Source of the DNA: Marinisporobacter sp.
GTDB lineage: Bacteria; Bacillota; Clostridia; Peptostreptococcales; Thermotaleaceae
Assembly: GCA_025210395.1 (NCBI GenBank)
Contig: JAOARV010000031.1
Coordinates: forward strand, 66,646-106,645
DNA: 40,000 nt
Direction of reading: 5' to 3'
The translations under genes were made by a program, and so were the position numbers. Position 1 is the stretch's first letter, and each line of letters starts with the position of its first letter. The notes below the pieces were generated by a model. The model was not told the origin of the DNA, made no database searches, and saw only the letters and a program-made list of their open reading frames with translations. Below are positions 10,455 to 26,328 of the stretch, piece by piece.

Positions 10455-10479
10455 TAGGCTAGGGATAACCCCTAGCCTA
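10455..10479. terminator. Bidirectional hairpin at the plsC / tail-cluster junction
   Basis: TAGGCTAGGG, loop ATAA, CCCTAGCCTA. A T-run follows on the - strand (AAATTTTTTTG) and TTTC on the + strand. Overlaps the holin stop codon. Confidence 0.65.
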
Positions 10480-10885
10480 TTTCATTATTCTCCTCTTTCA
10501 TTTTTTTCAATACCTTCACGATAAAGCTTGGAAGAGGTACACCCAAAACTCCAATATTTTCTATAATGGATATACCTTCATTGGCAATATAAAAATAAAT
10601 AGTCATCCCTCTAAATACAGGCTGCTCCCCACCTGTTGCCAAATCCATCTGATGTGCCAAAACAATCACAATAAAAATAGCCGCCTTCTTCAGCAGCCCT
10701 CGGTGTCCAATCTCACTGGATATTTCTTTATTTTTTAGCCCTTTCATCAATCCTGTTATATAGTCCGTTATCATCAATATTACTAAAATGTTTATAATGT
10801 TGTTCCACTCTCCAATCAATGCACTCATCACAGTTCCTAACCCTGCTAAAGCCATGTTTAGTGTTATTTTTAGGTTCATTAGCAT
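10472..10885 (-). CDS. Phage holin (toxin-secretion/phage-lysis holin family, phi LC3/TcdE-like)
   Basis: 137 aa, 3-4 TM. MITDYITGLMKG...YIANEGISIIENIG is the family signature. The true start may be the third codon (ATG 10879), 6 nt after AGGAAG. Confidence 0.8.
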   Translation of the reverse strand: MLMNLKITLNMALAGLGTVMSALIGEWNNIINILVILMITDYITGLMKGLKNKEISSEIGHRGLLKKAAIFIVIVLAHQMDLATGGEQPVFRGMTIYFYIANEGISIIENIGVLGVPLPSFIVKVLKKMKEENNEIG

Positions 10886-10922: not shown

Positions 10923-11057
10923 CTATTGTGTAATTTGTGGCGTTGCTAAAATCATATCTCTTTCTTGTTCTGTAATTCTTCCACGAGTACATTGCGTGCT
11001 AACAAATTTTTCGTCTACTTTTCTTAGAATCCACATGTTTAAAATAAAATTATACAT
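10923..11057 (-). CDS. XkdX-family small phage protein (copy 2)
   Basis: Below the track cutoff. My translation: MYNFILNMWILRKVDEKFVSTQCTRGRITEQERDMILATPQITQ* (44 aa). Has the G-x-IT-x-E/Q motif and sits at the end of a tail-fibre cassette, as XkdX does. Confidence 0.5.
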   Translation of the reverse strand: MYNFILNMWILRKVDEKFVSTQCTRGRITEQERDMILATPQITQ

Positions 11058-11060
11058 ATT

Positions 11061-11189
11061 CTATCCCTCCATCATAATATTTACAAGTGCCTGTTCTAAT
11101 GCTTCAATACGTTCTTTTTCTGTTGGTTTCTTTGATTGTTCTTTTTCTTTATCAATTTCTTTTTGCGTTTTCCATGGTATATTCGCCAT
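11061..11189 (-). CDS. Small phage protein (42 aa, charged/coiled)
   Basis: My translation: MANIPWKTQKEIDKEKEQSKKPTEKERIEALEQALVNIMMEG*. ATG 11189 is preceded by AGGAGGTG. Positionally equivalent to the 42-aa ORF at 14427..14555. Confidence 0.5.
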   Translation of the reverse strand: MANIPWKTQKEIDKEKEQSKKPTEKERIEALEQALVNIMMEG

Positions 11190-11191
11190 AG

Positions 11192-11467
11192 TTACACCTC
11201 CTGCCAAGTTGGAAATTTTTCTTTCTTTGTTGCATCTTTTCCTATGTAATTAATTAAAATCACACTCAAAATACCATCTTTTCTTTCAGCACTAATAATT
11301 GGATTTATAGACAAACTTGTTTCTATTTCTTCTTTTGCTTTTCCATCTGCCATAGCAGAAAAATCGAATGTATCTGTTATATTGTCTAATGTTACTGATA
11401 TTTTTTCTTCCTCAAATGCATAATTAATTTTTTGATCACTTCTTTGTGGGCTATATAATATCCTCAC
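11192..11467 (-). CDS. Phage hypothetical protein downstream of fibre 2 (XkdW position)
   Basis: Track ORF is 11192..11500. GTG at 11467 (MRILYSPQRSDQK...) is preferred because GGAGGTGGAAATA precedes it and it overlaps the upstream stop by 1 nt. No recognised domain. Confidence 0.55.
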   Translation of the reverse strand: MRILYSPQRSDQKINYAFEEEKISVTLDNITDTFDFSAMADGKAKEEIETSLSINPIISAERKDGILSVILINYIGKDATKKEKFPTWQEV

Positions 11468-11982
11468 TATTTCCACCTCCCAATTGCAAAAACATTGCAA
11501 TTACTTATACTGTCACCATCTTGAAAATCTGTCATTCCATTTATTCGCCTCATAGAAAATTGTGCAACCCCAGTACTTTTGTAACTACATCCACTTAGTC
11601 CTATCATATCTCTGCTTGGTGTTATATTTACATCAGCAGAATTACTAGAAAGTAGAAAAAATACATTTCCGATTGCGATAAATGATGCTGGAAAATTCCA
11701 AGTTGAATCAAGATATTCGTTGCTTTCATACCCTAATGATAAGGTGTTCCAGCATATTTGTGTACCATCATCGAATCTAATATATTCTCCATTACTATTG
11801 CTACCGCTTTCTGTTATATGTTTTTTCGTACTTTCTGCCTGATGCGACATAATCTTTTGATTAACTCCCTTTAAAGCCTGATCAATCTTAGCATTATCCT
11901 CCACAAAATCTGATCTCTTTGGATATTCATTTCCTTCCCATTGATTTAACCCTAAATATTCTGTTCTATTTTTACTTGGCAT
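11467..11982 (-). CDS. Short tail fibre / receptor-binding protein (copy 2)
   Basis: 171 aa. N-terminus YLGLNQWEGNEYPKRSDFVEDNAKIDQAL is the common fibre N-terminal adaptor motif. C-terminus ...GEYIRFDDGTQICW...NVFAIGRWK is a gp53-like knob ending in AIGxW. Confidence 0.7.
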   Translation of the reverse strand: MPSKNRTEYLGLNQWEGNEYPKRSDFVEDNAKIDQALKGVNQKIMSHQAESTKKHITESGSNSNGEYIRFDDGTQICWNTLSLGYESNEYLDSTWNFPASFIAIGNVFFLLSSNSADVNITPSRDMIGLSGCSYKSTGVAQFSMRRINGMTDFQDGDSISNCNVFAIGRWK

Positions 11983-12615
11983 TTACGACACCTCTCTTCT
12001 ACTCATTGCTTTTTCAATCAACACTAATAAAGGTCCAAAATCAGGTTTTTCTTTAATAACATTTCTCCAATACTCTGGACTTAAAATGATATTATCTTTT
12101 AATCTTTCAATAGCCTCTATTCCTTTTTCTATTCTCCAGTCATTTGTAGGCTTTAATAGCTCTTGGTCTACTTGCTCTAAATGATATTCCTCTATAATCT
12201 GTTGAAGTTTTTTAGGATAATGTGGATCTGTGGCATATCCTGCTTTGTATACTTCATTGGTAGCTTCTAAATAATCTTTTGCCTTGCAAACATTTTTATA
12301 TCTATTGACGGTACCGATGAGTCTTTGATAGTCCCTTACACTATCTTCTAAATGATCATAAGCTCTAAATGTAGCCTGTACAGTTATCATTTTTTCTCCA
12401 TTCCATTCCTTTGTAGGTAATGTAATTGTTTTTCCTTTCCAGTACTTTCCCGTTTTGAAGCCAAAATAATTGTTTGCACTCCCCATATGCTTCGTTCCAA
12501 AGCTACTTTCAAGACAAGCTTGTGCAATACATAGTGCTGGTAAAATATTATATTTTTCATAGCCTTCCTTTGCAATAGGTATCAATTGATTGATAAAATC
12601 CTGCTTATTCATCAT
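11983..12615 (-). CDS. Mannosyl-glycoprotein endo-beta-N-acetylglucosaminidase (GH73) with an unassigned C-terminal tail of about 60 aa
   Basis: 210 aa. LCIAQACLESSFGTKH...NNYFGFK...YATDPHYPKKL are GH73/LytD-type motifs. Start overlaps the XkdU-2 stop (ATGA) and the stop abuts the fibre-2 start. Confidence 0.8.
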   Translation of the reverse strand: MMNKQDFINQLIPIAKEGYEKYNILPALCIAQACLESSFGTKHMGSANNYFGFKTGKYWKGKTITLPTKEWNGEKMITVQATFRAYDHLEDSVRDYQRLIGTVNRYKNVCKAKDYLEATNEVYKAGYATDPHYPKKLQQIIEEYHLEQVDQELLKPTNDWRIEKGIEAIERLKDNIILSPEYWRNVIKEKPDFGPLLVLIEKAMSRREVS

Positions 12616-13163
12616 CGTACCCCCTTATAAATTTCAAATTCATCCCAACTAAGATTTAACTGATCCCACTTATCCCAAGTTTTATTGTAATCATCAAATT
12701 CATTCCAAATGAGATAATTAAAAATATATGCTATTGCCAGATGGGCAGGCTTTATATCTTCTAAAGCCTGCTTTAAATCCTCCATATTTGGAGGGATTCC
12801 ATACACACTCTCAAACTCAATGTGGATTTTTCCATCAAAGGTTACTTTCACATCCCCATTTGTATATGCATCTGCTACGAGTTTGATTAGGTTTCTATCT
12901 ACCTTTCCAGCACCTCTCCATTTAGATTTGATAGTACTTCTTCGTTCCTCATAAGGTCTATTTAGGTCTGTTGGTATCCCTAATTCTTTTTCATAAAGCT
13001 CTAGTGCCCATGTAGCTGTGTCAATTGCTAGTTGTTTCTCTAAATCTTTTATCATTAATGCTTTTCTATCAAGCTCTTGTCCCTGTACACTTATAAGCTC
13101 TTGAAAAACCTTGCTCTTTTGCTCAAAGATAGGTAAATACTTTAACATTCTTTCTTTAACCAA
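12612..13163 (-). CDS. XkdU/YmfQ-like baseplate protein (DUF2313), copy 2
   Basis: 183 aa. YLP..., ...RRSTIKSKWRG.G..., ...IPPNMEDLKQALEDIKPAHL are DUF2313 hallmarks. TTG start behind AGGAGGGG. Confidence 0.75.
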   Translation of the reverse strand: MVKERMLKYLPIFEQKSKVFQELISVQGQELDRKALMIKDLEKQLAIDTATWALELYEKELGIPTDLNRPYEERRSTIKSKWRGAGKVDRNLIKLVADAYTNGDVKVTFDGKIHIEFESVYGIPPNMEDLKQALEDIKPAHLAIAYIFNYLIWNEFDDYNKTWDKWDQLNLSWDEFEIYKGVR

Positions 13164-14223
13164 TATTCACCCCTCCTAACACAGATACTTGTTCATTTAC
13201 TATAGAAATATTTTTATTCTGCCCATTAATCCTTAACTCAGAAAAATCAATAATCCCTATAGAGTCTAATATAATACTTGTAATTTTGTTGTAGCTTACC
13301 TTATTTTCTTTAAATGCAATCTCTTTTAAATAAGCACTAATATTTTTCTTTACATCTTCTTTGATAGCTACGTCTGTCACGGCAAGATCTTTTTCTGTAA
13401 CCTTAAAATATATATCTAAAGTTATAGGAGTAGCACTTACAACAGTGCAAAAAGCACCTATAGGTGCTTTTCCTTCTCCTAATCCCTTTGCCTCTGGGTC
13501 AATATATTGTTGAACTTTTCTTGCTAAATCTGCATTAGGTTTTTTCTCCTTGTCTATAATGATCACTTTAACGGTATTCGGTTGATCATTAGGAAGAGAA
13601 ATCACCTTTACGTCTCCTACACCTGTAACTTCCTTTGCCCAGTTTCGATAATGATACTTATTCCCCGATGTAGCAGGAGTCTGTATCCTTTCATAATATC
13701 TTTGCAAAAGCTCTTGGTCACTTTCTGCTTCATAACCATTTTTAAACTCTTTTTGATTCGTTACATTTTTAAGCCCTGTGAGGGTAGCAGGGAAAGATTT
13801 GATAGCTCCTATAGGTACATTTCCTATAGAACCATATTCTTCACACGCTACTAAAATATCTACTTGTCCCTGATCAATAGTTTTGTTTTCCTTTATGATG
13901 AAATTTACCGTATCACTTGCAACTAAATCATTTTCTTTTACCTTTGCACCTATATTACCTATAATAGTCACATATCCACTTGCTTTTGTTGCAGCCTTTC
14001 TTTTAATCCCTGTTCTCTCATAAACTCTTTGTTCTAGCTCTAAACCTTTTAGATTCTTCATCATGAGTTTTCCTTCTACTACTTTTATTTCTTTTCCTAT
14101 GCTTTCTAATTCAATGGCAGTAGGCTTTAATGCATCATAAAAAAAAGAGCCTTCAGATTTGTCATAAGTCTCTGATATGCTCCTAAGCATTCTATTTTGT
14201 ATGGTTTCTTTATTTTCTACCAT
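13156..14223 (-). CDS. Baseplate J-like protein (XkdT/gp47 family), copy 2
   Basis: Track ORF is 13156..14250. ATG 14223 (MVENKETIQNRM...) is preferred because AAGGAGGTG lies 7 nt upstream. Conserved blocks SEGSFFYDALKP and TPATSGNKYHYRNWAKEV. Confidence 0.8.
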   Translation of the reverse strand: MVENKETIQNRMLRSISETYDKSEGSFFYDALKPTAIELESIGKEIKVVEGKLMMKNLKGLELEQRVYERTGIKRKAATKASGYVTIIGNIGAKVKENDLVASDTVNFIIKENKTIDQGQVDILVACEEYGSIGNVPIGAIKSFPATLTGLKNVTNQKEFKNGYEAESDQELLQRYYERIQTPATSGNKYHYRNWAKEVTGVGDVKVISLPNDQPNTVKVIIIDKEKKPNADLARKVQQYIDPEAKGLGEGKAPIGAFCTVVSATPITLDIYFKVTEKDLAVTDVAIKEDVKKNISAYLKEIAFKENKVSYNKITSIILDSIGIIDFSELRINGQNKNISIVNEQVSVLGGVNIG

Positions 14224-14249
14224 GAGTTTCACCTCCTTATAAAAGTGCA

Positions 14250-14278
14250 TAAAAATAACACCTGGTTTAAATGGTGTT
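14250..14278 (-). terminator. Intrinsic terminator between fibre cassette 1 and cassette 2
   Basis: On the - strand: AACACC, loop ATTTAAACCA, GGTGTT, then ATTTTTAT. The stem pairs 14257..14262 with 14273..14278. A short 6-bp stem. Confidence 0.5.
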
Positions 14279-14305
14279 TATAGTAAATTCAATGATATTC
14301 TTCCT

Positions 14306-14434
14306 TTATGATGCAACAATTTCCTCATACTGATCTTGTGTAATCCATCCTAACCTTAGTATTCTATCTAGTTGTTCTTTTGTCATCCAATTATTAGAGT
14401 AATATTCCCTTGCAATTTTGTACCAATCATGCAT
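14306..14434 (-). CDS. XkdX-family small phage protein (copy 1)
   Basis: My translation: MHDWYKIAREYYSNNWMTKEQLDRILRLGWITQDQYEEIVAS* (42 aa), a textbook XkdX pattern (W..y....t.eq....v..g.IT.eqYeeI). RBS AGAGGAGGAAAAG. Confidence 0.7.
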   Translation of the reverse strand: MHDWYKIAREYYSNNWMTKEQLDRILRLGWITQDQYEEIVAS

Positions 14435-14555
14435 TTTCTTTTCCTCCTCTTAATAAATCTAATTCAATCTGCAAGTCAATGACCTTCTGTGCTAATATTT
14501 CTATATCATTAGATGCTTTTTCAATTTCTACTGGACTTTTAACAACTACTTTCAA
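14427..14555 (-). CDS. Small phage protein (42 aa, coiled)
   Basis: TTG 14555 follows AGGGAGGGATAGAC. My translation: (M)KVVVKSPVEIEKASNDIEILAQKVIDLQIELDLLRGGKENA*. Overlaps the XkdX-1 start (ATGCATGA). Confidence 0.45.
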   Translation of the reverse strand: MKVVVKSPVEIEKASNDIEILAQKVIDLQIELDLLRGGKENA

Positions 14556-14557
14556 GT

Positions 14558-15013
14558 CTATCCCTCCCTTATCTCTATGACATTGATTTGTACTTCATCA
14601 AGAGTAATCGTATCTTTTGTAACAGAAAACCATGCAAGTCTGTCAATCATGTTGCTTGGTACTTTATCAAAATGTGATTCTAACTTTCCGATTTCTTTTG
14701 ATAATACGGTGATTCCATCTTCACAAAGCCACACTTCATAGTCATATCCCGTGGATATTTGGATTTCTGCTCCATCCAGTGGAATTTTAGTTCCTGTTGG
14801 TACTTGCTTCTTTATTTCTACTTCTTGCTGTGTTTCTTCATCCCACACTGTTTCTGTTACTGTGGTCATTTCTTCTGTATAATTTTTAAATAATTCCTTA
14901 TTTCCTGCTGTGTAATGAGTTCCGTCAATTTTTAGTTTCATGCCTTCTGTTGTTACTTTGAAGTCATGTAAAGCAGTATCAAGACTTCCTGTTACTACAT
15001 GTAGTGTTATCAT
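14558..15013 (-). CDS. Phage hypothetical protein downstream of fibre 1 (possible fibre accessory/chaperone)
   Basis: 151 aa, RBS AAGGAGGAATAATT. No motif recognised; function inferred only from position. Confidence 0.5.
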   Translation of the reverse strand: MITLHVVTGSLDTALHDFKVTTEGMKLKIDGTHYTAGNKELFKNYTEEMTTVTETVWDEETQQEVEIKKQVPTGTKIPLDGAEIQISTGYDYEVWLCEDGITVLSKEIGKLESHFDKVPSNMIDRLAWFSVTKDTITLDEVQINVIEIREG

Positions 15014-15025
15014 AATTATTCCTCC

Positions 15026-17545
15026 TTATTTTCCTATTGCCATCCATGTAATCCACACTTTTTTTAAAGAATCTTCTGTAGATACCTTTAAATATGGAGT
15101 GAAAGACGTTGTTGTTGGTTTTTCCATACCAATATAATCAATGTACTGACTCCAACCAGCACCAGTTATAAATATAGTTGGATTGTTTGAAAATGCTCTT
15201 TTAAATGTAATAGCACTAGAAAAACCTTGGGTGATAGGTGTTTCAAAAATACCGTACTCAATCCTCTCCCCATCACCTTTAATCATAGTATCTTTAATCT
15301 CTTTATTAATTCCCGCAATATCTCCTTCGACTTCGCCTACATGTTCTACTAACTTATTATGACTTTCACGTAAGTTTTCTTCATACTTGATTTGTGCATT
15401 TGCTAGTTGATTGTTATATTCTTCGTCTAGCATTTCATAGAGGACATAATATTCGGCTTGTGAATCATATTTTGTTGATAAATCTTCTTTTTTGATATAA
15501 AGTCTGCTTTTTCCGTAAGCAGATGCTATAGACCAAGTCCAATTATCATCATCTATAGTAAAATTTCCATCCTTTTTCTTATAAATAGATTTTATATGCT
15601 TTGTTTTATAATTAAGGTGATTGGGTAACACTATATTATTTATATACACATATTCATTAGCTCTTAATATTTCAGGTATTGCCTTTTCCCAAACTAAACC
15701 ACTTCCAACTTCAACGGTATTCATTCCCTCAACGGTAGCAAGCCCCTCACTACCAAAAGGAATATCTAAGTCTACTTCTTCTTCGTAAGGGTTTTCTAGT
15801 GCGTAGAAAAGTTCGTAATATTTTATAAAACCTTCAATGATAGCTGGGGATCGTTCAATAGGGACATTTCCTGAAAAATCATATCCGTTAGTTGAATATG
15901 AATTTAAATTTTCATCATTGAAATAACACCATGCTTTTGTACCGGATGTGTAAGGGGTATCATAATCATCTAAGTCCTTTTGATACATCTTCCATCCCAT
16001 CATAAATGCCTTAATTTCATCTTCCGTTGGTGTGTAAGATTCTCCCCATCCTGTGTCTGTGTTGGAAATCGTTAGATATAAAGCGCGATCCGCATCTGAA
16101 TACATCATATATTGATCTGAATTGTCGGTAGGACTAGAATGGGTTAAAATTTTACCATTATATTTTTTCAAGATATTTTTTTCCCATATAGAATTAATTC
16201 CTACATTCGCACTTTTTATTCTCTTATATTCTTTAACAGCAAAAATTAACTCCCAATCTAAATTTTCATCTAGTTTAACTCTTTTAACTTTTCTTTCCAC
16301 AATTCCCTTAGTCCCCTTAATCTCTCTCAAATTATCCCTATAAGAGGTGTTAGGAATTTCAGCTAAATGAGTAGGTAAAATTGCTAATGATTCTTTGTAA
16401 GGGGTATATGGTAGTGGAATTGTTCCTTCGTTTAATTGTATTTTAAAAGAGTAATTATTGAATGTAGTACCACTTGGAAACCATAATTGGAAAAACGCTA
16501 CTGGATTACTGTAATTAAATATCTGTGGTGGTGCTCCATCTGAAACCCTATAGTCTAAGTAGTGAGTGGTATCTCTTTTTCTTAAAACTATATTCACAAC
16601 GCCATTACCAACAACATCCAACAAGTTCATATTATATTGGGTATCCTTCTTGAGAACTTGGATATGTGAATCATACCAAGTACTTATTATACTTTGAGCA
16701 AATTTAAAGCCATCTGTTAGTTTCACATGGGTCGATGCTGTTGCCGTACCATGCAATACTACTTTATTTTCTTTTACAGTAATAGTAACACCATTTGCTG
16801 TAATACTACCTTGTGTTAGTTTAAGTAAATTTTCCCTAACCAACTTCACATAAGGGTGCTCAAGAGGTTGCGCTGATTCACAGTAAGGTACATCTTGGTT
16901 TGTCCAATCACCCTCAAGAATCATTACTTGATTAAACTTAATTGTTTTTCCATCTTCAACAATATCAGCATGGATATACAATCCTAATTCTATTGCATCT
17001 TTTTTCAAAAAAACTTTTTGTTTTCCACTTGACATATTAAAATAGCTGTAACCTTCTTTGTTTTTTAAATATCCTTTTAAGCCATAGGATGTATCATCAG
17101 AAACTATATTTGCAATAATAGTATAAGTTTTATTAGCTTTTATGTCTATTGGTAACTTCGATACTCTATGTATTGCATCATGCAAGACAGTTACACCTTC
17201 ACTACCACTTGATAGCATCCCTGACCAATTTCCATAATCATTACCATTATTAGCATAATTCACAACCATTTTACCTTCCATACTCACATCAACAGGACTT
17301 GCTACTTTTGAACTAAAGTGTTCTATCACAGAAGGATAATTTACTATCTTTACTGCCTTGTCTAGTTTATGAATTACTTCGTTATTTAGTTTTGTTATCC
17401 TATCTCTATCCGCTTCTATTCCTTGATCAATCTTATCCCAATTATCATTCAGCATTGTTTTTATATCAAAATATTCATTGCCATCTGTTTCAGGATTCTT
17501 TTTACATAGTTTTAAGTTTTTTGTTTCAGTTGCCAATTGGCTCAC
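15026..17545 (-). CDS. Long tail fibre / receptor-binding protein (copy 1)
   Basis: 839 aa. N-terminus NLKLCKKNPETDGNEYFDIKTMLNDNWDKIDQGI is the fibre adaptor motif. C-terminus ...ITFKRAFSNNPTIFITGAGW...VWITWMAIGK is a gp53-like knob. The real start is more likely TTG 17536, 8 nt after AGGAGG, than the track GTG 17545. Confidence 0.75.
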   Translation of the reverse strand: MSQLATETKNLKLCKKNPETDGNEYFDIKTMLNDNWDKIDQGIEADRDRITKLNNEVIHKLDKAVKIVNYPSVIEHFSSKVASPVDVSMEGKMVVNYANNGNDYGNWSGMLSSGSEGVTVLHDAIHRVSKLPIDIKANKTYTIIANIVSDDTSYGLKGYLKNKEGYSYFNMSSGKQKVFLKKDAIELGLYIHADIVEDGKTIKFNQVMILEGDWTNQDVPYCESAQPLEHPYVKLVRENLLKLTQGSITANGVTITVKENKVVLHGTATASTHVKLTDGFKFAQSIISTWYDSHIQVLKKDTQYNMNLLDVVGNGVVNIVLRKRDTTHYLDYRVSDGAPPQIFNYSNPVAFFQLWFPSGTTFNNYSFKIQLNEGTIPLPYTPYKESLAILPTHLAEIPNTSYRDNLREIKGTKGIVERKVKRVKLDENLDWELIFAVKEYKRIKSANVGINSIWEKNILKKYNGKILTHSSPTDNSDQYMMYSDADRALYLTISNTDTGWGESYTPTEDEIKAFMMGWKMYQKDLDDYDTPYTSGTKAWCYFNDENLNSYSTNGYDFSGNVPIERSPAIIEGFIKYYELFYALENPYEEEVDLDIPFGSEGLATVEGMNTVEVGSGLVWEKAIPEILRANEYVYINNIVLPNHLNYKTKHIKSIYKKKDGNFTIDDDNWTWSIASAYGKSRLYIKKEDLSTKYDSQAEYYVLYEMLDEEYNNQLANAQIKYEENLRESHNKLVEHVGEVEGDIAGINKEIKDTMIKGDGERIEYGIFETPITQGFSSAITFKRAFSNNPTIFITGAGWSQYIDYIGMEKPTTTSFTPYLKVSTEDSLKKVWITWMAIGK

Positions 17546-18104
17546 CTCCTAAAATAATTGGTACAAATGGTGAAAAATCTGTTAATCTTCTTTTTTGTAT
17601 TTCATTGATGGTTAGCTTTTGTACTTGATTGATGATCAGATACTTAAATTCATATTCTACAATTAAGTGTGCTGGCTTTATTTCTTCTATGGCATTTTTT
17701 AAATCTTCAAGGTTTGGGGGTGCACCTAGTGTATCCATGAATTTGATGATGAATTTATTATTTACAATACATTCCTCATTTTCAATAACTTCAATCTTTC
17801 CTTTTTCATAGCTTTGAGCAACATTTTCTAAGAGCTTTACAGTGACAGTTCCTATTCCTCTAAGCTTTGATTTGATGATACTTCTTCGAAATAGTGTATC
17901 TTTTTCATTACTGATGGGAATTCCTAGATCTTTTTCCCATCTTTCAAGATTCTTGTCTGCTGTATCTATAAAGAATTGATTGATATTTTCTTGTATCTTT
18001 TGCATCAATTGTTCTAGTTGCTTTTCCTCGGTGGTCATGAGATTTTTCATGACCTTGCTTTTTCTATAATACCCTGGAAGGTAGCTCATTAGCTTTTGTT
18101 CCAT
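17526..18104 (-). CDS. XkdU/YmfQ-like baseplate protein (DUF2313), copy 1
   Basis: 192 aa. SYLPGYY..., ...RRSIIKSKLRG.G..., ...APPNLEDLKNAIEEIKPAHL. RBS GAGGGGGGTG. Confidence 0.75.
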   Translation of the reverse strand: MEQKLMSYLPGYYRKSKVMKNLMTTEEKQLEQLMQKIQENINQFFIDTADKNLERWEKDLGIPISNEKDTLFRRSIIKSKLRGIGTVTVKLLENVAQSYEKGKIEVIENEECIVNNKFIIKFMDTLGAPPNLEDLKNAIEEIKPAHLIVEYEFKYLIINQVQKLTINEIQKRRLTDFSPFVPIILGGEPIGN

Positions 18105-19198
18105 ACAACACCCCCCTCTTTCCTTAGAACAGCTACTTGTTTTTCTCCAATATCATAGACTCCTTTTTGTAAATCTATAAGGTTTTCATCTACATATACT
18201 TGAAGGTTGGTATAATCTACTACCCCTTCTGCTTGAAGAATGGCACTTCCTATTTTTGCATAGCTTATATAGCCTTCAAGATAAGCTGTATCCTTTAAAT
18301 ATTTTTTGATGTTTTCTTCTATATTTGTAATCACTTGTTCTTGTTTACAATTTACTTTGTTGATTTTTAGCTTTACTTTTACATAGGTTTCTATTTCTTG
18401 AGCTGATTGTACCTTTACAATAGCTCCTATAGGTCTTTTTTCATTGATATACGTTTTTACTTCATTAATTAGGCTATCCTCTGCTGCTTTCATTCCCTCA
18501 GCAATAATCACAACCTCTACCGTACCATTTCCTTTTGTTACTGAACACACTCCACCTTGCTGGATTACCTTTTGGGCTGGAAATACTCTTGCATCTTCTA
18601 CTCTAGGAACTTCCTTTGCCCAGTTTCTATAATGATGTTTATTTCCTGATGTAGCAGGAGTACGAACCTTATCAAAATATCTTTGTCTTAAAGCTTCATC
18701 ACTTTCCCCATCATATCCATTGGTGATGGGTTCTAGATTCGTTACACTGCTAAAGCCACTTAGAGATGTTGGAAACTTTTTTATCTTACCTGCTCCTATA
18801 TTTCCAATGCTTCCTATTTCTTCGCATTCTACTAATACCTTTACCTGTCCACTTTCGCCAATAGTGACATTCTCTTTCACAATAAAATCTACAATATCAC
18901 TAGATACCCTCATCCCTACTCTTACTTCTGCTCCTTTTTCTCCATCAATATGTACAATAGTAGTTGCTTTTATAGGTGCTTTTCTTTTTAATCCTTGCTC
19001 AGCTACCTTTTTATCTAAAAAAATACCTGTAGCAGTTTCTACAAAGCCTTGATCTAATATTTTCTCTTGTTGTTCATAAGCTTTTACTAATTCAATCGCA
19101 ATTGGTTTTAGTACATCATAAAAAAAACTTCCTTCTGATTGATCATAGGTATCATCAATTCCTGATAACATATTCTTCATAATTTTGTCTATCATCAT
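18089..19198 (-). CDS. Baseplate J-like protein (XkdT/gp47 family), copy 1
   Basis: 369 aa. SEGSFFYDVLKP and TPATSGNKHHYRNWAKEV blocks. Overlaps the XkdS-like stop. Confidence 0.8.
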   Translation of the reverse strand: MMIDKIMKNMLSGIDDTYDQSEGSFFYDVLKPIAIELVKAYEQQEKILDQGFVETATGIFLDKKVAEQGLKRKAPIKATTIVHIDGEKGAEVRVGMRVSSDIVDFIVKENVTIGESGQVKVLVECEEIGSIGNIGAGKIKKFPTSLSGFSSVTNLEPITNGYDGESDEALRQRYFDKVRTPATSGNKHHYRNWAKEVPRVEDARVFPAQKVIQQGGVCSVTKGNGTVEVVIIAEGMKAAEDSLINEVKTYINEKRPIGAIVKVQSAQEIETYVKVKLKINKVNCKQEQVITNIEENIKKYLKDTAYLEGYISYAKIGSAILQAEGVVDYTNLQVYVDENLIDLQKGVYDIGEKQVAVLRKEGGVVWNKS

Positions 19199-19641
19199 AA
19201 GTTCACCTCCTGACTCAAGAAATCTCCACCTACTAAATCTACTTGAAAGGATACAATCAATTGGGGATTATCTTTTTTGATTTCCCATTGGGATATAGAC
19301 CCAATCATCGGATGCTTTGTTAAGCTTTCTGTGATTTCTCTTCTTAGCTCTGCTTCTACAAAAGCTTTTGGAAAATTGTTTCCTATGATTAAATCTTCAA
19401 TGATTATGCCATATTCATTGGAATCTTCTCTTTCGTAGATTTTGTATCTATATTTTTCTGTCCTCAAAATCTTTTCAATCCATCCCTTGATAGCAGCTTT
19501 TCCTGTTACTTCAACAACTCTTCCATCTTTTACATCAAAATCTCCTTTTTTGAAATCAAATAAAAAAGATTTACCTATCTTCGGTAAACCTGACTCCTTT
19601 TCTTTGGTCTTTATTTGTAATTGTGTTACCTGCGGAAACAT
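19195..19641 (-). CDS. XkdS-like baseplate wedge protein (DUF2634, gp25/W-like)
   Basis: 148 aa. Position and size between the XkdR-like and baseplate J genes. GKSFLFDF...GD motif typical of DUF2634. Confidence 0.6.
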   Translation of the reverse strand: MFPQVTQLQIKTKEKESGLPKIGKSFLFDFKKGDFDVKDGRVVEVTGKAAIKGWIEKILRTEKYRYKIYEREDSNEYGIIIEDLIIGNNFPKAFVEAELRREITESLTKHPMIGSISQWEIKKDNPQLIVSFQVDLVGGDFLSQEVNL

Positions 19642-20057
19642 TATAATCTCACCGCCTTATCTATTAGAAAATAGGTTTGTTCATCTGTAGACGGAACCAA
19701 TATAACTATATCCCCTTTTTTAAGGGTATCTGTATATTTCATAGTCCCTGTAATAGTCGTTTGTGCACCAACACTTCCACTAACTACCTTATATGTTGTA
19801 GGTGGTGGACTTGTTTGAAGTGTAATAGAACCACCCTCTCCGTTGGTTTGTATATTTCCTTTTACTTCTATTTCTCTTTGATAATCCTTTAATACATGTG
19901 CTGCTATGACTAAGTGTTCTTTTGTTAGGATGATCTTGTCTCCAAGAGATACTTGAATATTAGGGGGAGGGCTAAGTACCATTCCTGTCTGTGGTCCTAG
20001 ATAAGGTTGATTATCCCTTTCTTTAAACAATTTAGCCAGTTCACTAATGCCATCCAT
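19641..20057 (-). CDS. XkdR-like protein (DUF2577; spike/central baseplate component)
   Basis: 138 aa. ...GMVLSPPPNIQVSLGDKIILTKEHLVIA... matches the DUF2577 pattern. Located between the XkdQ-like and XkdS-like genes. Confidence 0.6.
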   Translation of the reverse strand: MDGISELAKLFKERDNQPYLGPQTGMVLSPPPNIQVSLGDKIILTKEHLVIAAHVLKDYQREIEVKGNIQTNGEGGSITLQTSPPPTTYKVVSGSVGAQTTITGTMKYTDTLKKGDIVILVPSTDEQTYFLIDKAVRL

Positions 20058-21025
20058 TATATCACCCCTAATCCTAGCTGCATTTTGTGAATGCCATTTT
20101 TCACTGTATGATTTACATCCTTGATCAGGTATTTTCCAGTCATTCCTGTTATAGGCTCTTTGATTTCTATGGTTCTTCCTGCTCGTACCTTATCATCTCC
20201 CATGATTTCAACGCTGTTCTCTTCAAATATTTTCCCAAAGTCTTCTAATATTTTGTCTGCAATGTTCCTTGCTTTTGCTTTATCTTTTTTGTCTATGGTT
20301 GTAACTTCTTGAAGTAGCCCATATTGTTTGATTAATTCATCTTTTTTTCTGTTTTCGATCACATGATTATTAAATACTACTTGAACACTATTTTTCATCT
20401 CTTCTATAGATCGTTTTCTACTAGGACTAGAAAGAGCCTTTGTTATATCATAGGGTTGTATATTTTCTGCAAGCTGGAAGGTTCCTTTGATGATTAACTC
20501 CTCTTGTTTTTCTATACATAGCTTCCCCTGCCTCATTTCCATCCTATATTTCTTTCCTGTATGCTTCTTTGCAATATCTAAAATGTCCTTGATAATTTCA
20601 CTAATAGCTTTCTCCCTATAGATTTTGTTGATCACCGTATTAATAGGTGCAATATTTCCAATAGGTACATTAAAATCATTGAGCATAGTTTCAATGGCTT
20701 TTTTTCCTGTAACTTTATTAAACTGATAAACTGCCTTACTTTTATTGAGATAAAATGCATAATCAAAGCAGCTATATTCGATTCTACCTCTTCCATTTCT
20801 TTGCTCTGAAACAACAATGGCTCGAAGAATTTCATCTTTATTATTGAGAATGATTAAGCTTCCTAAATCTACTGGATTCATTGGAAAATATCGATCATCA
20901 TTAAAAGCAATATCAAAGGTTAGTTGTTGTCCTAACTCATTGATATTGCTTCTCCAGCTGATACTTCCTACTAAAGGTGTAATATCTGTTTGTAAGTTAT
21001 CTTTAATATTAAGTAGCTGATGCAT
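20057..21025 (-). CDS. XkdQ/YqbQ-like baseplate hub protein (gpD/gp27-like)
   Basis: 322 aa. N-terminus ...DITPLVGSISWRSNINELGQQLTFDIAFND... resembles XkdQ/YqbQ. Canonical position after the XkdP-like gene. Confidence 0.65.
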   Translation of the reverse strand: MHQLLNIKDNLQTDITPLVGSISWRSNINELGQQLTFDIAFNDDRYFPMNPVDLGSLIILNNKDEILRAIVVSEQRNGRGRIEYSCFDYAFYLNKSKAVYQFNKVTGKKAIETMLNDFNVPIGNIAPINTVINKIYREKAISEIIKDILDIAKKHTGKKYRMEMRQGKLCIEKQEELIIKGTFQLAENIQPYDITKALSSPSRKRSIEEMKNSVQVVFNNHVIENRKKDELIKQYGLLQEVTTIDKKDKAKARNIADKILEDFGKIFEENSVEIMGDDKVRAGRTIEIKEPITGMTGKYLIKDVNHTVKNGIHKMQLGLGVI

Positions 21026-21026
21026 A

Positions 21027-21467
21027 TTACACCTCCTTTTGTTCTAGTTGTATGAATTTGAATTCGCTCAAGGTAAGGGTATAATATATATCCCCACTAC
21101 CATCCTGCTGCCCATATTCAAAGCTTTCTATCGTACAAGCCATATTCCCTAAATGATCAGGCATATCATTAATAATCATTCGAATGGGTACTCTTCTATT
21201 TTTCCATTTTTCAAGCATGTCTACATAGTCCCATGCTTTGTACTGTTGATTTTCTTCTAAACCTCTTAAAAAAGGATACTTATGGTTTGGGAAAAATGAT
21301 TGTATGCTAATGCTCCTTAAATTTTTCATGCCTATCAGCTTGATTTCTCCCTGACTTATGGTATCAAAGGTTTCATTTTTCATTCCTGATTGTATTTTAA
21401 ATTCCTTTGGCAAAACAGGAAGTGTAAAAAATTGCTCTCTATTGTTTACTGAAAGTAAAATATCCAT
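21027..21467 (-). CDS. XkdP-like tail protein, N-terminal domain only (no LysM)
   Basis: 146 aa. LPVLPKEFKIQSG...IESFEYGQQDGSGDIYYTLTLSEFKF resembles the N-domain of XkdP-type proteins, which usually carry a C-terminal LysM. None is seen here. Confidence 0.5.
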   Translation of the reverse strand: MDILLSVNNREQFFTLPVLPKEFKIQSGMKNETFDTISQGEIKLIGMKNLRSISIQSFFPNHKYPFLRGLEENQQYKAWDYVDMLEKWKNRRVPIRMIINDMPDHLGNMACTIESFEYGQQDGSGDIYYTLTLSEFKFIQLEQKEV

Positions 21468-21480
21468 GAATGCACCTCCT

Positions 21481-23280
21481 TTATGCGTATGTAGGTTGGT
21501 TGGACATGGCTTCTTTTAGTCTTGGGATCAACTTATTAGCAATTTCTTCACTAGACATATTGGCACCTGTAATATTGAATGTAAGATTATTTCTTATATG
21601 CTGACGAGTTCTACGATCTTCCGATTTTATCCCCATATTTTTATTGCTTTGTCCATGTACTGGATGATTTCTCGTTGGGTTTTTAACATAATTATTTCTA
21701 TATAGATTCATTATATTTGATCCTACTCGTTTTCCATATTTTGTGATTCCTAAATTTTTAGTATTAGCTTTATACTCCAGTTTCATTTCATGCTGCGTAT
21801 TAATCTTATTTTGTGATTTAGGAATGAAATGATTCCTACTAATACTATATTTTCCATTTTGTAACTTTTCTTTCATTAAATCTACTTGCTTAGTTGCACC
21901 TGTAAGATTGAATGTAAGATTATTTCTTATATGCTGACGAGTTCTACGATCTTCTGATTTTATCCCCATATTTTTATTGCTTTGTCCATGTACTAGATGA
22001 TTTCTCATTGGGTTTTTAACATAATTATTTCTATATAGATTCATTATATTTGACCCTAATTGTTTTCCATATTTTGTTATTCCTAAATCTTTAGTATTAG
22101 CTGTATACTCCAGTTTTATTTCATGCTGTGTATTAATCTTGTTTTGTGATTCAGGAATAAAATGATTCCTACTACTACTATATTTTCCATTTTGTAACTT
22201 TTCTTTCATTAAAGCTACTTGCTTAGATGGAGTATATTTATCTTTGATCTTGTTCCAAGTATTATTAATAACCCTTACGCTGTTTGTCTCTAAATTTTTT
22301 AAATTATTTTCTTTTATTTGTGCTTTAAACTTTTGATCTTTTGTTCTTTCATTCTCACGTATAGAAATAGGCACGGTTCTATTTCCTAGATCCTTGATTT
22401 GTGGATAATTTTGCATATATGAATCTAGATTAATTGGTATATTTAAATCTTTTGGAGGAATAAAATACTTATTAATTTCCGCTCTCATAGGATCATCTAA
22501 TATATTTTTATACACCATCGTAAGAGGAGTAGTCACTATAGCAGATGTTCCCAAGCTAACTAAATCTACAGCTGCAAGAAATTGTATACATTCATCTTCT
22601 TTTTTCTCCCTCAGTGTTTTTATAGCAAATAATATAGTAAGAGGAGTAAATATATTTTTTGAAATTGTATTTTGTAATGCTTTAAATCTAGATAAATTTT
22701 TTATAGATCCTTCAACCCATCTTTTTATTGGTCCTGATTGTTTTATTAAATCTTTATTATTTCCCATTTTCCCCCACAATTCAATCATCTTTTGTGAGGC
22801 TATCCCTGCTTTACTAGCCATATCAATTGTCTTATTTTTTAAAAGTAATTGGTTTTTTTTAGAAATTGATATATTTTTTACAAATTTTGAAAATTCCCTC
22901 CCTATCTTTGTATCCAAAAACCAAGTACCATAAGATATCCCCGAACCATAAGAACCATCACCATTATCAATTTCTCCATTTCTATTACTATCTACAGGCG
23001 TATCTACAAATTCGCCAAATTGTTCCATAAATTCGTCAAATGAATTGATTATAAAAGGTTTTATATAATTATCTATATTTTTATTTAACCACTTTCCTAT
23101 AGGATTTGTCTGTCCAATATTTCTTCTAGGATCAGTTTTTTTACAAAGTTCATTAGATTTTTTCATGATTTCTATATATGGATTTTTAAATTGATTCTTT
23201 CCATCATTCTCATCTTTTTTTATTAACTTCTTATCTATTTCTTTAGACTTCATTGTTTCTTTCTCCATTTTATTACCCAT
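21481..23280 (-). CDS. Tail tape measure protein
   Basis: 599 aa in the canonical slot after the chaperone pair. Central hydrophobic segments (TPLTILFAI, AAVDLVSLGTSAIVTTPL). C-terminal 2 x 111-aa tandem repeat. RBS AAGGTGGTGAG. Confidence 0.7.
   Translation of the reverse strand: MGNKMEKETMKSKEIDKKLIKKDENDGKNQFKNPYIEIMKKSNELCKKTDPRRNIGQTNPIGKWLNKNIDNYIKPFIINSFDEFMEQFGEFVDTPVDSNRNGEIDNGDGSYGSGISYGTWFLDTKIGREFSKFVKNISISKKNQLLLKNKTIDMASKAGIASQKMIELWGKMGNNKDLIKQSGPIKRWVEGSIKNLSRFKALQNTISKNIFTPLTILFAIKTLREKKEDECIQFLAAVDLVSLGTSAIVTTPLTMVYKNILDDPMRAEINKYFIPPKDLNIPINLDSYMQNYPQIKDLGNRTVPISIRENERTKDQKFKAQIKENNLKNLETNSVRVINNTWNKIKDKYTPSKQVALMKEKLQNGKYSSSRNHFIPESQNKINTQHEIKLEYTANTKDLGITKYGKQLGSNIMNLYRNNYVKNPMRNHLVHGQSNKNMGIKSEDRRTRQHIRNNLTFNLTGATKQVDLMKEKLQNGKYSISRNHFIPKSQNKINTQHEMKLEYKANTKNLGITKYGKRVGSNIMNLYRNNYVKNPTRNHPVHGQSNKNMGIKSEDRRTRQHIRNNLTFNITGANMSSEEIANKLIPRLKEAMSNQPTYA
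21559..22224 (-). repeat. Tandem direct repeat, 2 x 333 bp, in frame inside the tape measure gene
   Basis: Unit 1 is 21892..22224 (aa 353-463) and unit 2 is 21559..21891 (aa 464-574). 99 of 111 aa are identical by my count. The DNA is visibly near-identical at a 333-nt offset (for example GCACCTGTAA at 21563 and 21896). Confidence 0.9.
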
Positions 23281-23338
23281 CCACTCACCACCTTCTCTTA
23301 AAAAATAAAACCATAAAAAGCACCCCTATGGGTACTTC

Positions 23339-23485
23339 CTATGATTCATACTGTTCTTTCATCATTTTCTCTAACTCTTCCATTTCCTTCTCATAAAAAG
23401 CCATGAGGAGAATCATCTCTCCCCTTGGCATGTTGTATAGCACAGATGGTCGGATGCCTTTTGTTTTCCAGTAGTAGTAAAGCAT
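23339..23485 (-). CDS. Small ORF in the -1 frame after the chaperone gene (48 aa from its ATG; probable frameshift extension, gpT-like)
   Basis: My translation: MLYYYWKTKGIRPSVLYNMPRGEMILLMAFYEKEMEELEKMMKEQYES*. The frame stays open upstream through the last codons of the XkdN-like gene. Confidence 0.55.
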   Translation of the reverse strand: MLYYYWKTKGIRPSVLYNMPRGEMILLMAFYEKEMEELEKMMKEQYES

Positions 23486-23508
23486 CTGTGTAAAACCATC
23501 TGTGTTGA

Positions 23509-23904: not shown

Positions 23905-23915
23905 AAGCTTCCTCC

Positions 23916-24362: not shown

Positions 24363-24374
24363 ATTTATTCCCTC

Positions 24375-26266: not shown

Positions 26267-26328
26267 CTTATTTTAAAGTATAATATAGAAATTTTAATAA
26301 TATCGGTTTAGTTTCGGCAATTTTTCGG
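26267..26328 (-). promoter_or_regulatory. Conserved 62-nt promoter-like module, copy B (upstream of the structural operon; overlaps the 3' end of the regulator gene)
   Basis: - strand: CCGAAAAATTGCCGAAACTAAACCGATATTATTAAAATTTCTATATTATACTTTAAAATAAG. Matches copy A at 47 of 62 positions without gaps. Ends 79 nt before ATG 26187. Confidence 0.55.

What the first reader, a model, noticed from the sequence alone, without database searches (positions are those of the whole stretch)
10923..19198. Two tandem, divergent copies of the whole baseplate-periphery/receptor-binding cassette
The six-gene unit (baseplate J, XkdU/DUF2313, fibre, accessory ORF, roughly 42-aa coiled ORF, XkdX) occurs twice in the same orientation.

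| Component | Cassette 1 (14306..19198) | Cassette 2 (10923..14223) |
|---|---|---|
| Baseplate J | 369 aa | 355 aa |
| XkdU-like | 192 aa | 183 aa |
| Extra gene | none | GH73 hydrolase, 210 aa |
| Fibre | 839 aa | 171 aa |
| Accessory ORF | 151 aa | 91 aa |
| Small coiled ORF | 42 aa | 42 aa |
| XkdX | 42 aa | 44 aa |

The paralogues are clearly homologous. Shared blocks include SEGSFFYD.LKP, TPATSGNK.HYRNWAKEV, RRS.IKSK.RG.G and PPN.EDLK.A.E.IKPAHL. They are only moderately similar by eye (well under 60% identity), so this is not a recent duplication or an assembly artefact.

The upstream core (sheath to XkdS) is single copy. One tail/hub scaffold could therefore be finished with either of two wedge-plus-fibre sets. 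That would be either a built-in dual-specificity mechanism or a captured cassette from a second element. I do not recall a contractile-tail locus in which the J-like and I-like wedge proteins are duplicated along with the fibre; the usual pattern is duplication of fibre and chaperone only.
Basis: partly seen in the sequence, partly recalled or inferred. Interest (0 to 1): 0.78.

Follow-up and report, generated by a model that had tools for sequence, protein, structure and literature searches.

The report
Tailocin with two wedge-plus-fibre cassettes
A headless phage-tail weapon (tailocin) in a Crassaminicella-like clostridial genome has one tail core but two old, intact sets of baseplate-wedge and receptor-binding genes; related genera share this layout, which probably lets one machine be built with alternative targeting heads.

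Summary
The core observation is real. Downstream of a single-copy contractile-tail core there are two Baseplate_J genes (42% identity, E 6e-79) and two XkdU/Mu-Gp48 genes (41%, E 3e-37). Each pair is followed by its own fibre genes.

The "six-gene unit twice" claim is overstated:
- The fibres share at most a weak N-terminal motif.
- The accessory and small ORFs show no detectable similarity.
- The second "XkdX" does not match the XkdX family.

The locus has no capsid genes, sits between host genes and ends in a holin, so it is an R-type tailocin.

The arrangement is not an artefact or a relic:
- It occurs at the same chromosomal site in Crassaminicella profunda and Marinisporobacter balticus.
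- Wukongibacter has three cassettes; Geosporobacter-like loci have a permuted form.
- Inediibacterium massiliense carries only the second-type cassette on the orthologous core.
- Both J/U pairs have dN/dS of about 0.1-0.2.
- Both cassettes have had their distal fibre parts swapped between congeners.
- The only lysin candidate and the holin lie in or after cassette 2.

The best reading is alternative triplex-plus-fibre sets for one core, giving several specificities. This is inferred, not shown. I found no prior description. I rate it a new variant of a known kind, interest about 0.6.

The parts
26308..26841 (-). Putative late-gene activator (177 aa), first gene of the locus
   Evidence: Weak, below-cut-off NCBIfam matches to RinA, ArpU and ECF-sigma families. 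It is conserved at the head of the orthologous loci, 75% identical in M. balticus and 68% in I. massiliense.
19195..26187 (-). Single-copy tail core: g100, tail terminator, sheath (24375-25445), tube (23916-24362), XkdN-like chaperone, 48-aa ORF, tape measure (21481-23280), 146-aa XkdP-like, YqbQ hub (20057-21025), DUF2577 (19641-20057), sheath initiator XkdS (19195-19641)
   Evidence: Pfam hits. No second copy of any of these exists in the window.
18089..19198 (-). J1: Baseplate_J / triplex TRI-2-like wedge protein, cassette A
   Evidence: Pfam Baseplate_J 1.2e-60. Its start overlaps the XkdS stop. It is 85% identical to the C. profunda orthologue and 65% to the M. balticus one.
17526..18104 (-). 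U1: XkdU / Mu Gp48 / TRI-1-like wedge protein, cassette A
   Evidence: Pfam Phage_Mu_Gp48 1.9e-29. PDB match to diffocin TRI-1 CD1372, 8e-15.
15026..17545 (-). F1: 839-aa tail fibre of cassette A
   Evidence: PHROG matches to one family of unknown function (phrog_13022) and to tail and tail-fibre families. The N-terminal motif NLKLxKxxPxTDGNEYFDI is conserved among A-type fibres. Only about the first 97 aa are conserved with C. profunda; overall identity is 42%.
14306..15013 (-). W1 (151 aa), c1 (42 aa) and X1 (42 aa, XkdX): accessory genes of cassette A
   Evidence: X1 matches Pfam Phage_XkdX at 2.1e-10. W1 and c1 match no Pfam family; W1 has one marginal PHROG match of unknown function. Identity to C. 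profunda is 60%, 50% and 80%.
14224..14305 (-). 82-nt junction between the cassettes, with a strong ribosome-binding site for J2
   Evidence: AAGGAGGTG lies 7 nt before the ATG at 14223. AGGTGTTATTTTTAT and GGAGGTGAAAC are conserved upstream of the M. balticus J-B gene. The small hairpin is no more stable than shuffled sequence, z -0.66.
13156..14223 (-). J2: Baseplate_J / TRI-2-like wedge protein, cassette B
   Evidence: Pfam Baseplate_J 2.1e-64. Full-length match to diffocin TRI-2 CD1371 (8v3w), 2.7e-39. It is 92% identical to C. profunda, 72% to M. balticus and 69% to I. massiliense.
12612..13163 (-). U2: XkdU / Mu Gp48 / TRI-1-like wedge protein, cassette B
   Evidence: Pfam Phage_Mu_Gp48 2.4e-31. 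PDB matches to phiCD508 gp66 (6e-18) and CD1372 (5e-11).
11983..12615 (-). GH73 glucosaminidase (210 aa) inserted between U2 and F2; the only lysin candidate of the locus
   Evidence: Pfam Glucosaminidase 4e-33. PHROG endolysin families up to 6e-57. It is present in the same position in C. profunda at 85% identity and absent from M. balticus and I. massiliense, which have an M15 peptidase after the holin.
11467..11982 (-). F2: 171-aa short fibre / receptor-binding protein of cassette B
   Evidence: Residues 55-171 match the C-terminal tip of tail-fibre PHROGs, phrog_2712 at 4e-19, and the C-terminus of PDB 9cod_A at 3e-8. The N-terminal 40 aa are conserved with the M. balticus and C. profunda B-type fibres.
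10923..11467 (-). W2 (91 aa), c2 (42 aa) and X2 (44 aa): accessory genes of cassette B
   Evidence: W2 is 50% identical to the M. balticus orthologue. X2 has no XkdX match and hits only phrog_29872. All three have Shine-Dalgarno sites.
10455..10885 (-). Holin (10472-10885) and the terminator that ends the operon (10455-10479)
   Evidence: Pfam Phage_holin_4_1 7e-38. An 11-bp GC-rich bidirectional hairpin with a T-run is the strongest terminator in the region.

Best explanation
The locus is a domesticated, capsid-less R-type phage-tail-like bacteriocin of the PBSX/diffocin type. It is transcribed as one long operon, from a RinA/ArpU-like activator gene to a terminal holin.

One core (sheath, tube, tape measure, hub, sheath initiator) is followed by two alternative "periphery" cassettes. 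Each cassette encodes a complete wedge triplex, meaning two copies of a Baseplate_J protein plus one XkdU/Gp48 protein, together with its own receptor-binding fibre and accessory proteins.

In the diffocin structure the triplex docks on the sheath initiator through its N-terminal bundle. The fibre hangs from the C-terminus of the XkdU-like subunit. Either triplex type should therefore be able to complete the same core and bring a different fibre. A producing cell would then release particles with two specificities, or three in the Wukongibacter arrays.

Whether the two wedge types mix within one baseplate or form separate particles is not known.

- **Shown:** the anatomy, the homology, the conservation, purifying selection, and fibre swapping in both cassettes.
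- **Inferred:** co-expression, assembly of both sets, and dual killing range.
For: 1. J2 and U2 are full-length homologues of the solved triplex proteins CD1371/CD1372 and phiCD508 gp65/gp66. The role of these proteins is taken from PMC10996793.
2. The A-then-B array sits at the same chromosomal site in C. profunda (core 87-97% aa) and M. balticus. A-C-B arrays occur in Wukongibacter spp. and JMSU01000002.1. An A-B array occurs in an ENA contig.
3. The orthologous locus of I. massiliense has the B-type set alone directly after XkdS. The B set is therefore a stand-alone wedge that works with this core family.
4. dN/dS is 0.14-0.27 for J2/U2. That is in the range of J1/U1, XkdS and the holin.
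5. Between the window and C. profunda, J, U and the fibre N-termini are kept while the distal fibre genes are replaced. This happened in both cassettes, which is the signature of selection on target range.
6. No strong terminator lies before the holin. The only lysin candidate (GH73) sits inside cassette B and the holin lies after it, so transcription must cross cassette B for release.
7. Every cassette gene has a GGAGG-type ribosome-binding site.
8. The J and U trees are congruent and resolve three cassette lineages, so J and U travel as a pair.
Against: - There are no transcript, proteome or particle data for any of these organisms.
- The fibre N-terminal adaptor type is not strictly tied to the U lineage. 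An F2-type N-terminus follows an A-like U in L026 and L054. The reason why J and U must be duplicated with the fibre is therefore not established.
- The N-terminal, core-docking parts of J and U are not more conserved between lineages than the rest of the proteins.
- F2 is very short, and its M. balticus orthologue is twice as long.
- dS is near saturation (about 1), so the dN/dS values are approximate.
Confidence: 0.6

Rival explanations
1. Cassette B is a passenger or relic. On this view it is the tail end of a second element that fused to the locus. Only its lysis genes (GH73, holin) are still used, and J2/U2/F2 are not built into particles.
For: - The B lineage of J and U is phylogenetically distinct. 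Its nearest single-copy relatives are in other genera: Bacillus infantis and an uncultured Clostridia MAG.
- F2 is short.
- Recombination scars are found in related arrays: a 55-aa J fragment in L003 and a duplicated fibre N-terminus in L070.
Against: - J2 and U2 are intact and full length.
- dN/dS is 0.14-0.27 over dS of about 1.
- The cassette is conserved across at least four genera.
- The B type is the sole wedge set in I. massiliense.
- The distal fibre of cassette B was exchanged between congeners while J2, U2 and GH73 stayed 85-92% identical.
Confidence: 0.1
2. Both wedge sets are obligate partners in one baseplate. Examples would be A and B triplexes alternating on the three-fold hub, or a second peripheral layer. 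On this view every particle carries both fibres by design.
For: - The two sets are co-oriented in one operon, with no strong signal between them.
- In diffocin the sheath initiators adopt two conformers to bridge six-fold and three-fold symmetry (PMC10996793). Alternating positions are therefore structurally distinct.
Against: - Orthologous cores function with a single cassette of the B type (I. massiliense, L050) or of the A type (L004 and others).
- Cassette number varies from one to three, and cassette position varies (B upstream of the core in Geosporobacter).
- There is no sign of co-evolution or gene conversion between A and B J proteins of the same genome: 0.445 same-genome against 0.441 different-genome identity.
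Confidence: 0.12
3. The cassettes are used at different times or by different machines. Cassette B might have its own conditional promoter, or might serve a second tail core elsewhere in the genome.
For: - J2 is the only cassette gene preceded by a real intergenic gap (82 nt), and that gap has conserved sequence.
- M. balticus has a second contractile-tail locus on another contig, L004.
- In Geosporobacter-like loci cassette B lies upstream of the core.
Against: - No promoter-like site scores on the coding strand in the gap, and promoter-like sites overall are no more frequent than in shuffled sequence.
- The second M. balticus locus has its own J/U pair.
- The rest of the window organism's genome could not be examined.
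Confidence: 0.12

Closest known systems
Diffocin (Clostridioides difficile R-type bacteriocin) and the PBSX-type defective prophage tail module
   Same: - Capsid-less contractile tail with the same gene order: sheath, tube, chaperone, tape measure, hub, sheath initiator, J-like, XkdU-like, fibre, XkdX, lysis.
- J2 matches CD1371 at 2.7e-39, and U1/U2 match CD1372.
   Different: - Diffocin and PBSX have one triplex pair and one fibre set. Here there are two, and three in relatives.
- The hub here has no hydrolase domain detectable by Pfam.
Tandem R-tailocin clusters of rhizosphere Pseudomonas (listed in my searches as PMC4684702, not read; the description below is from my own knowledge)
   Same: Several specificities come from one chromosomal site under shared regulation and a shared lysis cassette.
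   Different: There each tailocin brings its own complete structural set: sheath, tube and whole baseplate. Here only the wedge triplex and the fibre module are multiplied behind a single core.
Multi-fibre or fibre-switching tailocins such as kosakonicin (PMC6629978, abstract seen); carotovoricin and xenorhabdicin are from my own knowledge
   Same: Target range is diversified by carrying more than one receptor-binding gene in a tailocin locus.
   Different: Those systems multiply or invert only fibre and chaperone genes. Here the J-like and I-like wedge proteins are multiplied too, and there is no invertase or meaningful inverted repeat.
Orphan VgrG/PAAR-effector islands of type VI secretion systems (my own knowledge; analogy only)
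   Same: One conserved contractile core is served by several interchangeable, horizontally exchanged specificity modules.
   Different: It is a different part of the machine (spike tip, not wedge), a different output (effector choice, not receptor choice), and there is no homology.

Membership tests
R-type phage tail-like bacteriocin (contractile tailocin) | Sheath, tube, tape measure and baseplate genes in one cluster | tested here: met
   Pfam hits to Phage_sheath_1/1C, DUF2001 (tube), Phage_TAC_5, YQBQ, DUF2577, Sheath_initiator and Baseplate_J.
R-type phage tail-like bacteriocin (contractile tailocin) | No capsid, portal, terminase, replication or integration genes; locus embedded in host genes | tested here: met
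   The flanks encode GntR, an ABC transporter and TspO on one side, and an acyltransferase, EamA and a Na/Ca exchanger on the other. No integrase is present in the 40 kb. The same flanks occur in M. balticus, C. profunda and I. massiliense.
R-type phage tail-like bacteriocin (contractile tailocin) | Own lysis cassette for release | tested here: met
   Holin, Phage_holin_4_1 7e-38. GH73 lysin candidate.
R-type phage tail-like bacteriocin (contractile tailocin) | Production of bactericidal headless particles | not testable with these tools
   This needs induction, electron microscopy and killing assays.
Baseplate_J / triplex TRI-2 (PF04865) | Score above the Pfam gathering threshold, full-length match | tested here: met
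   J1 scores 205 bits and J2 218 bits against a cut-off of 21. J2 aligns over residues 5-353 to CD1371.
XkdU / Phage_Mu_Gp48 / triplex TRI-1 (PF10076) | Score above the Pfam gathering threshold | tested here: met
   U1 scores 103 bits and U2 109 bits against a cut-off of 37. PDB matches.
Phage_XkdX (PF09693) | Score above the Pfam gathering threshold | tested here: not met
X1 passes at 40.9 bits against a cut-off of 23.5. X2 has no XkdX hit even at E<=10, and X1/X2 give no BLASTP alignment.
   Only J and U are homologous. For the fibres the evidence is E 0.15 by BLASTP and 0.0033 by profile comparison. W, c and X show no similarity.
Tandem complete tailocins (Pseudomonas type) | A second sheath, tube and hub set for the second specificity | tested here: not met
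   There is one sheath, one tube and one hub in the window and in the orthologous loci.
Invertible or shufflon-type fibre switch | Site-specific invertase plus inverted repeats flanking fibre segments | tested here: not met
   No recombinase is present in the window. The inverted repeats found are short and at chance level. The cassettes are co-oriented.

The most novel reading that the evidence does not exclude
A family of clostridial tailocins (Thermotaleaceae and Caminicellaceae, plus Crassaminicella) uses a plug-in baseplate periphery. Arrays of one to three complete triplex-plus-fibre cassettes, from three old lineages (A, C, B), are gained, lost, permuted and re-tipped by recombination, and all are served by one tail core. 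A single operon would then yield a multi-specific mixture of killing particles, possibly with mosaic baseplates that carry different fibres on one particle. This would be a level of modularity (wedge plus fibre, not fibre alone) that I did not find described for any contractile injection system.
Probability: 0.5. Interest if true: 0.75.

Novelty: new variant of a known kind. Interest (0 to 1): 0.62.

Why it matters
Tailocins are being engineered as precision antibacterials, usually by swapping fibres on a fixed baseplate. If nature multiplies the whole triplex-plus-fibre unit, two things follow.

- The exchangeable unit and its docking surface on the sheath initiator are defined by natural experiments. 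There are three wedge lineages on one core family.
- The system offers a direct test of an open assembly question: can a six-fold baseplate ring be built from mixed wedges, or do wedges sort into homotypic rings?

It would also show how a domesticated weapon widens its target range without duplicating the costly core. Two of the organisms are named strains with published genome sequences, C. profunda (complete genome) and M. balticus DSM 102940, so the prediction can be tested.

Tried and rejected
- **Regulatory signal at the X1-J2 junction.** The small hairpin followed by a T-run is no more stable than shuffled sequence (z -0.66). No promoter-like site lies on the coding strand there. I rejected it as evidence of a terminator or attenuator.
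- **Recent duplication or repeat-mediated switching.** The longest DNA similarity between the cassettes is 70 nt at 79%, plus a block of about 60 nt inside J. There is no invertase.
- **Concerted evolution of A and B J proteins in one genome, as a hint of mixed rings.** Same-genome identity equals different-genome identity in every segment, so the test was uninformative.
- **Higher cross-lineage conservation of the N-terminal, core-docking parts of J and U.** Not seen. The most conserved block is J 173-197.
- **Homology of the small ORFs.** BLASTP, Pfam at E<=10 and PHROGs gave nothing convincing.
- **Metagenome scan.** It returned only two loci because the patterns were too common.
- **Literature searches.** Six full-text searches found no description of duplicated J/XkdU genes in a tailocin. 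The library is limited to open-access papers.
- **Structure prediction of F2.** Not run, because the PHROG and PDB sequence matches already identify its tip domain.
Full report
**1. What is in the window**

The window has about 30% G+C. On the minus strand, one gene cluster runs from 26841 to 10455. In order, its parts are:
- a 177-aa regulator with weak RinA/ArpU/ECF-sigma similarity;
- a 100-aa protein with a faint scaffold-like match;
- a tail terminator, sheath, tube and XkdN-type chaperone;
- a 599-aa tape measure and a 146-aa XkdP-like protein;
- a YqbQ hub, DUF2577 and a sheath initiator (XkdS-like);
- the two cassettes of the finding;
- a holin and a strong bidirectional terminator.

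Both flanks are ordinary host genes. One side has GntR, an ABC transporter, TspO, TPR and parAB. The other has an acyltransferase, EamA and a Na/Ca exchanger. There is no capsid, portal, terminase or integrase gene anywhere in the 40 kb. The cluster is therefore a headless contractile tail, an R-type tailocin of the PBSX/diffocin kind.

**2. Check of the observation**

| Pair | Result |
|---|---|
| J1/J2 | 42% identical over 345 aa, E 6e-79; both pass Pfam Baseplate_J |
| U1/U2 | 41% identical over 160 aa, E 3e-37; both pass Phage_Mu_Gp48 |
| F1/F2 | best BLASTP E 0.15, in the N-terminal 40 aa |
| W1/W2 | no significant similarity, E 0.32 |
| c1/c2, X1/X2 | no alignment |

A profile-profile comparison of A-type and B-type fibre N-termini gives E 0.0033 but only 9.6% probability. 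X1 is a clear XkdX. X2 is not, even at E<=10.

The duplicated, homologous unit is therefore the J+U pair. What follows each pair is equivalent in position but not demonstrably homologous. F2 is nevertheless a real fibre-type protein. Residues 55-171 match the C-terminal tip of tail-fibre PHROGs (4e-19) and the C-terminus of PDB 9cod_A.

**3. What J and U are**

J2 aligns end to end with diffocin TRI-2 (CD1371, 8v3w; 2.7e-39) and with phiCD508 gp65. U1 and U2 match TRI-1 (CD1372) and gp66.

The diffocin cryo-EM paper (PMC10996793) describes the wedge as follows:
- Two J-like chains plus one XkdU-like chain form the "triplex".
- Six triplexes form the wedge ring.
- Their N-terminal bundle binds the sheath initiator.
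- The J C-terminal domains link neighbouring triplexes.
- The C-terminus of the XkdU-like chain carries the fibre.

Each cassette here therefore encodes a complete wedge unit plus its fibre.

**4. Not an artefact, and not unique**

An independent SRA assembly contains a contig 100% identical over 13.5 kb. The best database relative of J2 is from Crassaminicella profunda at 92%, so the window is from a Crassaminicella-like organism.

| Layout | Where it occurs |
|---|---|
| core-A-B-holin, same flanking genes | complete genome of C. profunda |
| core-A-B-holin, syntenic site | Marinisporobacter balticus (J1 65%, U1 77%, J2 72%, U2 77%) |
| core-A-C-B (three cassettes) | Wukongibacter sp. M2B1, W. 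baidiensis, JMSU01000002.1 |
| core-A-C (sequence ends) | a Clostridia MAG |
| core-A-B | an ENA contig |
| B cassette upstream of the core, A downstream | Geosporobacter ferrireducens (B upstream seen; sequence ends before any A cassette) and two IMG/VR contigs |
| two tandem J/U sets, more distant pair of contigs | L064, L068 |

After removing redundancy, about a dozen distinct loci carry more than one J/U set for one core.

Cultured phages differ. In the phage collection, J1 hits 216 records at 217 places, J2 hits 160 records at 161 places, and U2 hits 67 records at 67 places. A true prophage of C. thermophila with capsid genes has one set.

**5. Lineages**

Neighbour-joining trees of J and of U are congruent and resolve three cassette lineages.
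- **A** always follows XkdS.
- **C** sits in the middle and has extra genes between J and U.
- **B** is last, next to the lysis genes.

The nearest single-copy relatives of B and C are in other genera (Bacillus infantis for B; Clostridium tagluense and C. oceanicum for C). The paralogues are therefore old and were probably assembled from different elements, not duplicated in place.

A-versus-B identity is the same within a genome (0.445) as between genomes (0.441). There is no gene conversion.

**6. Is cassette 2 alive?**

- **Purifying selection.** Between the window and M. balticus, dN/dS is 0.18 for J2 and 0.14 for U2. This is like J1 (0.21), U1 (0.09), XkdS (0.18) and the holin (0.13). dS is about 1, so the values are approximate.
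- **Translation signals.** All cassette genes keep GGAGG-type ribosome-binding sites.
- **A single-cassette relative.** The orthologous locus of Inediibacterium massiliense has the same flanks and 78% sheath identity. It carries only a B-type J/U directly after XkdS, followed by fibres, a holin and an M15 lysin. The B set is thus a stand-alone wedge for this core family.
- **Fibre swapping in both cassettes.** The window and C. profunda compare as follows.

| Component | aa identity to C. profunda |
|---|---|
| Core proteins | 87-97% |
| J1 / U1 | 85% / 93% |
| F1 | 42% overall; conserved only for about the first 97 aa |
| J2 / U2 / GH73 | 92% / 91% / 85% |
| F2 | conserved only for the first 38 aa |

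After those 38 aa, the rest of F2 and W2, c2 and X2 are replaced in C. profunda by a 125-aa adaptor, a collagen-repeat protein and 181-aa and 77-aa proteins. The collagen-repeat and 181-aa proteins resemble, by their N-terminal sequences, the I. massiliense B-cassette fibre genes. Replacement of the distal fibre with retention of the baseplate-proximal part, in both cassettes, is what selection on target range produces.

**7. Operon logic**

- J1 overlaps the XkdS stop.
- J2 follows an 82-nt gap with a strong ribosome-binding site and sequence conserved in M. balticus.
- The small hairpin in the gap is not significant. No coding-strand promoter-like site lies in the gap, and promoter-like sites overall are no more frequent than in shuffled sequence.
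- The only strong terminator follows the holin.
- M. balticus, I. massiliense and others have an M15 peptidase after the holin. The two Crassaminicella loci lack it and instead carry a GH73 glucosaminidase between U2 and the fibre.

The lysin candidate and the holin therefore lie within or beyond cassette B. This implies, but does not prove, that transcription runs through cassette B whenever particles are released.

**8. Most likely mechanism (confidence about 0.6)**

One core can be finished with either triplex type, and each type brings its own fibre. The producer would then release particles of two specificities. The anatomy, homology, conservation, selection and fibre turnover are shown. 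Co-expression, incorporation of both sets and dual killing range are inferred. Whether wedges mix in one ring is open.

Three points weaken the argument:
- The fibre N-terminal type is not strictly tied to the U lineage.
- The core-docking N-termini are not specially conserved between lineages.
- F2 is short.

The rivals are a relic, an obligate A+B baseplate, and separate timing or a separate core. Each is disfavoured by the single-cassette orthologue, the variable cassette number and position, and the selection data. None is excluded without experiments.

**9. Comparison with known systems**

The locus is a member of the R-type tailocin kind. All sequence-level defining features are met, and particle production is untestable here.

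It differs from diffocin and PBSX, which have one triplex and one fibre set. It differs from Pseudomonas tandem tailocins, which have whole structural sets in tandem. It differs from kosakonicin-type or invertible multi-fibre loci, where only fibres are multiplied.

Six full-text searches found no description of duplicated J-like and XkdU-like genes in a tailocin. The search covers open-access literature only.

**10. Verdict**

This is a real and conserved architecture that I did not find described: a new variant of a known kind. A specialist would find it moderately surprising. It can be tested directly in C. profunda and M. balticus, whose genome sequences are published. Interest 0.62.

Noticed in passing
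window 21563-22226 (inside the tape-measure gene 21481-23280): There is a 333-nt (111-aa) tandem duplication at 94% identity inside the tape measure. The C. profunda protein is 104 aa shorter and otherwise alignable only at its C-terminus. Tape-measure length sets tail length, so this strain may make a longer tail.
   Followed up: partly
window 11983-12615 and the end of the locus at 10455-10885: The lysin has been replaced by a non-orthologous one. Relatives have an M15 peptidase after the holin. The two Crassaminicella loci have none there and carry a GH73 glucosaminidase wedged between U2 and the fibre, with overlapping or abutting start and stop codons. It could equally be a particle-borne wall hydrolase, since the hub shows no hydrolase domain.
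   Followed up: partly
L003 14234-14401; L070 6279-6737: The three-cassette arrays contain recombination debris. One piece is a 55-aa fragment that duplicates the N-terminus of the next J gene. The other is an ORF that ends in a copy of the N-terminus of the next cassette's fibre. This suggests cassette turnover by recombination at the 5' ends of J and fibre genes.
   Followed up: no
L073 9325-16851 (Geosporobacter ferrireducens CP017269.1); L026 and L054: The layout is permuted here. The order is regulator, B-type J/U/fibres (plus an M15 lysin in L073), then g100, terminator, sheath and the rest of the core. In L026 and L054 an A-type cassette follows the core, and in L026 lysis genes come after it. 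How the cassette moved upstream of the core is unexplained.
   Followed up: partly
L003 15762-16331, L018 15123-16938, L064 6093-7421 and 11045-11944: C-type and some distant cassettes carry one to three extra genes between J and the XkdU-like gene (189 to 442 aa, no family assigned). Several single-cassette loci have the same gap (L008, L012, L017, L020). These may be additional wedge components.
   Followed up: no
window 23339-23485 and 23308-23347: A 48-aa ORF follows the XkdN-like chaperone, with a long hairpin at its end. The position suggests the second, frameshift-dependent chaperone product typical of tail operons. This was not examined.
   Followed up: no
window 25885-26187: The first structural-operon gene (100 aa) has a below-threshold match to the phage scaffold family PF06810. 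Its Geosporobacter homologue is annotated with the same family. It may be a leftover of the lost head module.
   Followed up: no
window 38634-39998: The parB and parA/soj genes lie about 12 kb from the tailocin, so the locus is probably close to the chromosomal origin region.
   Followed up: no
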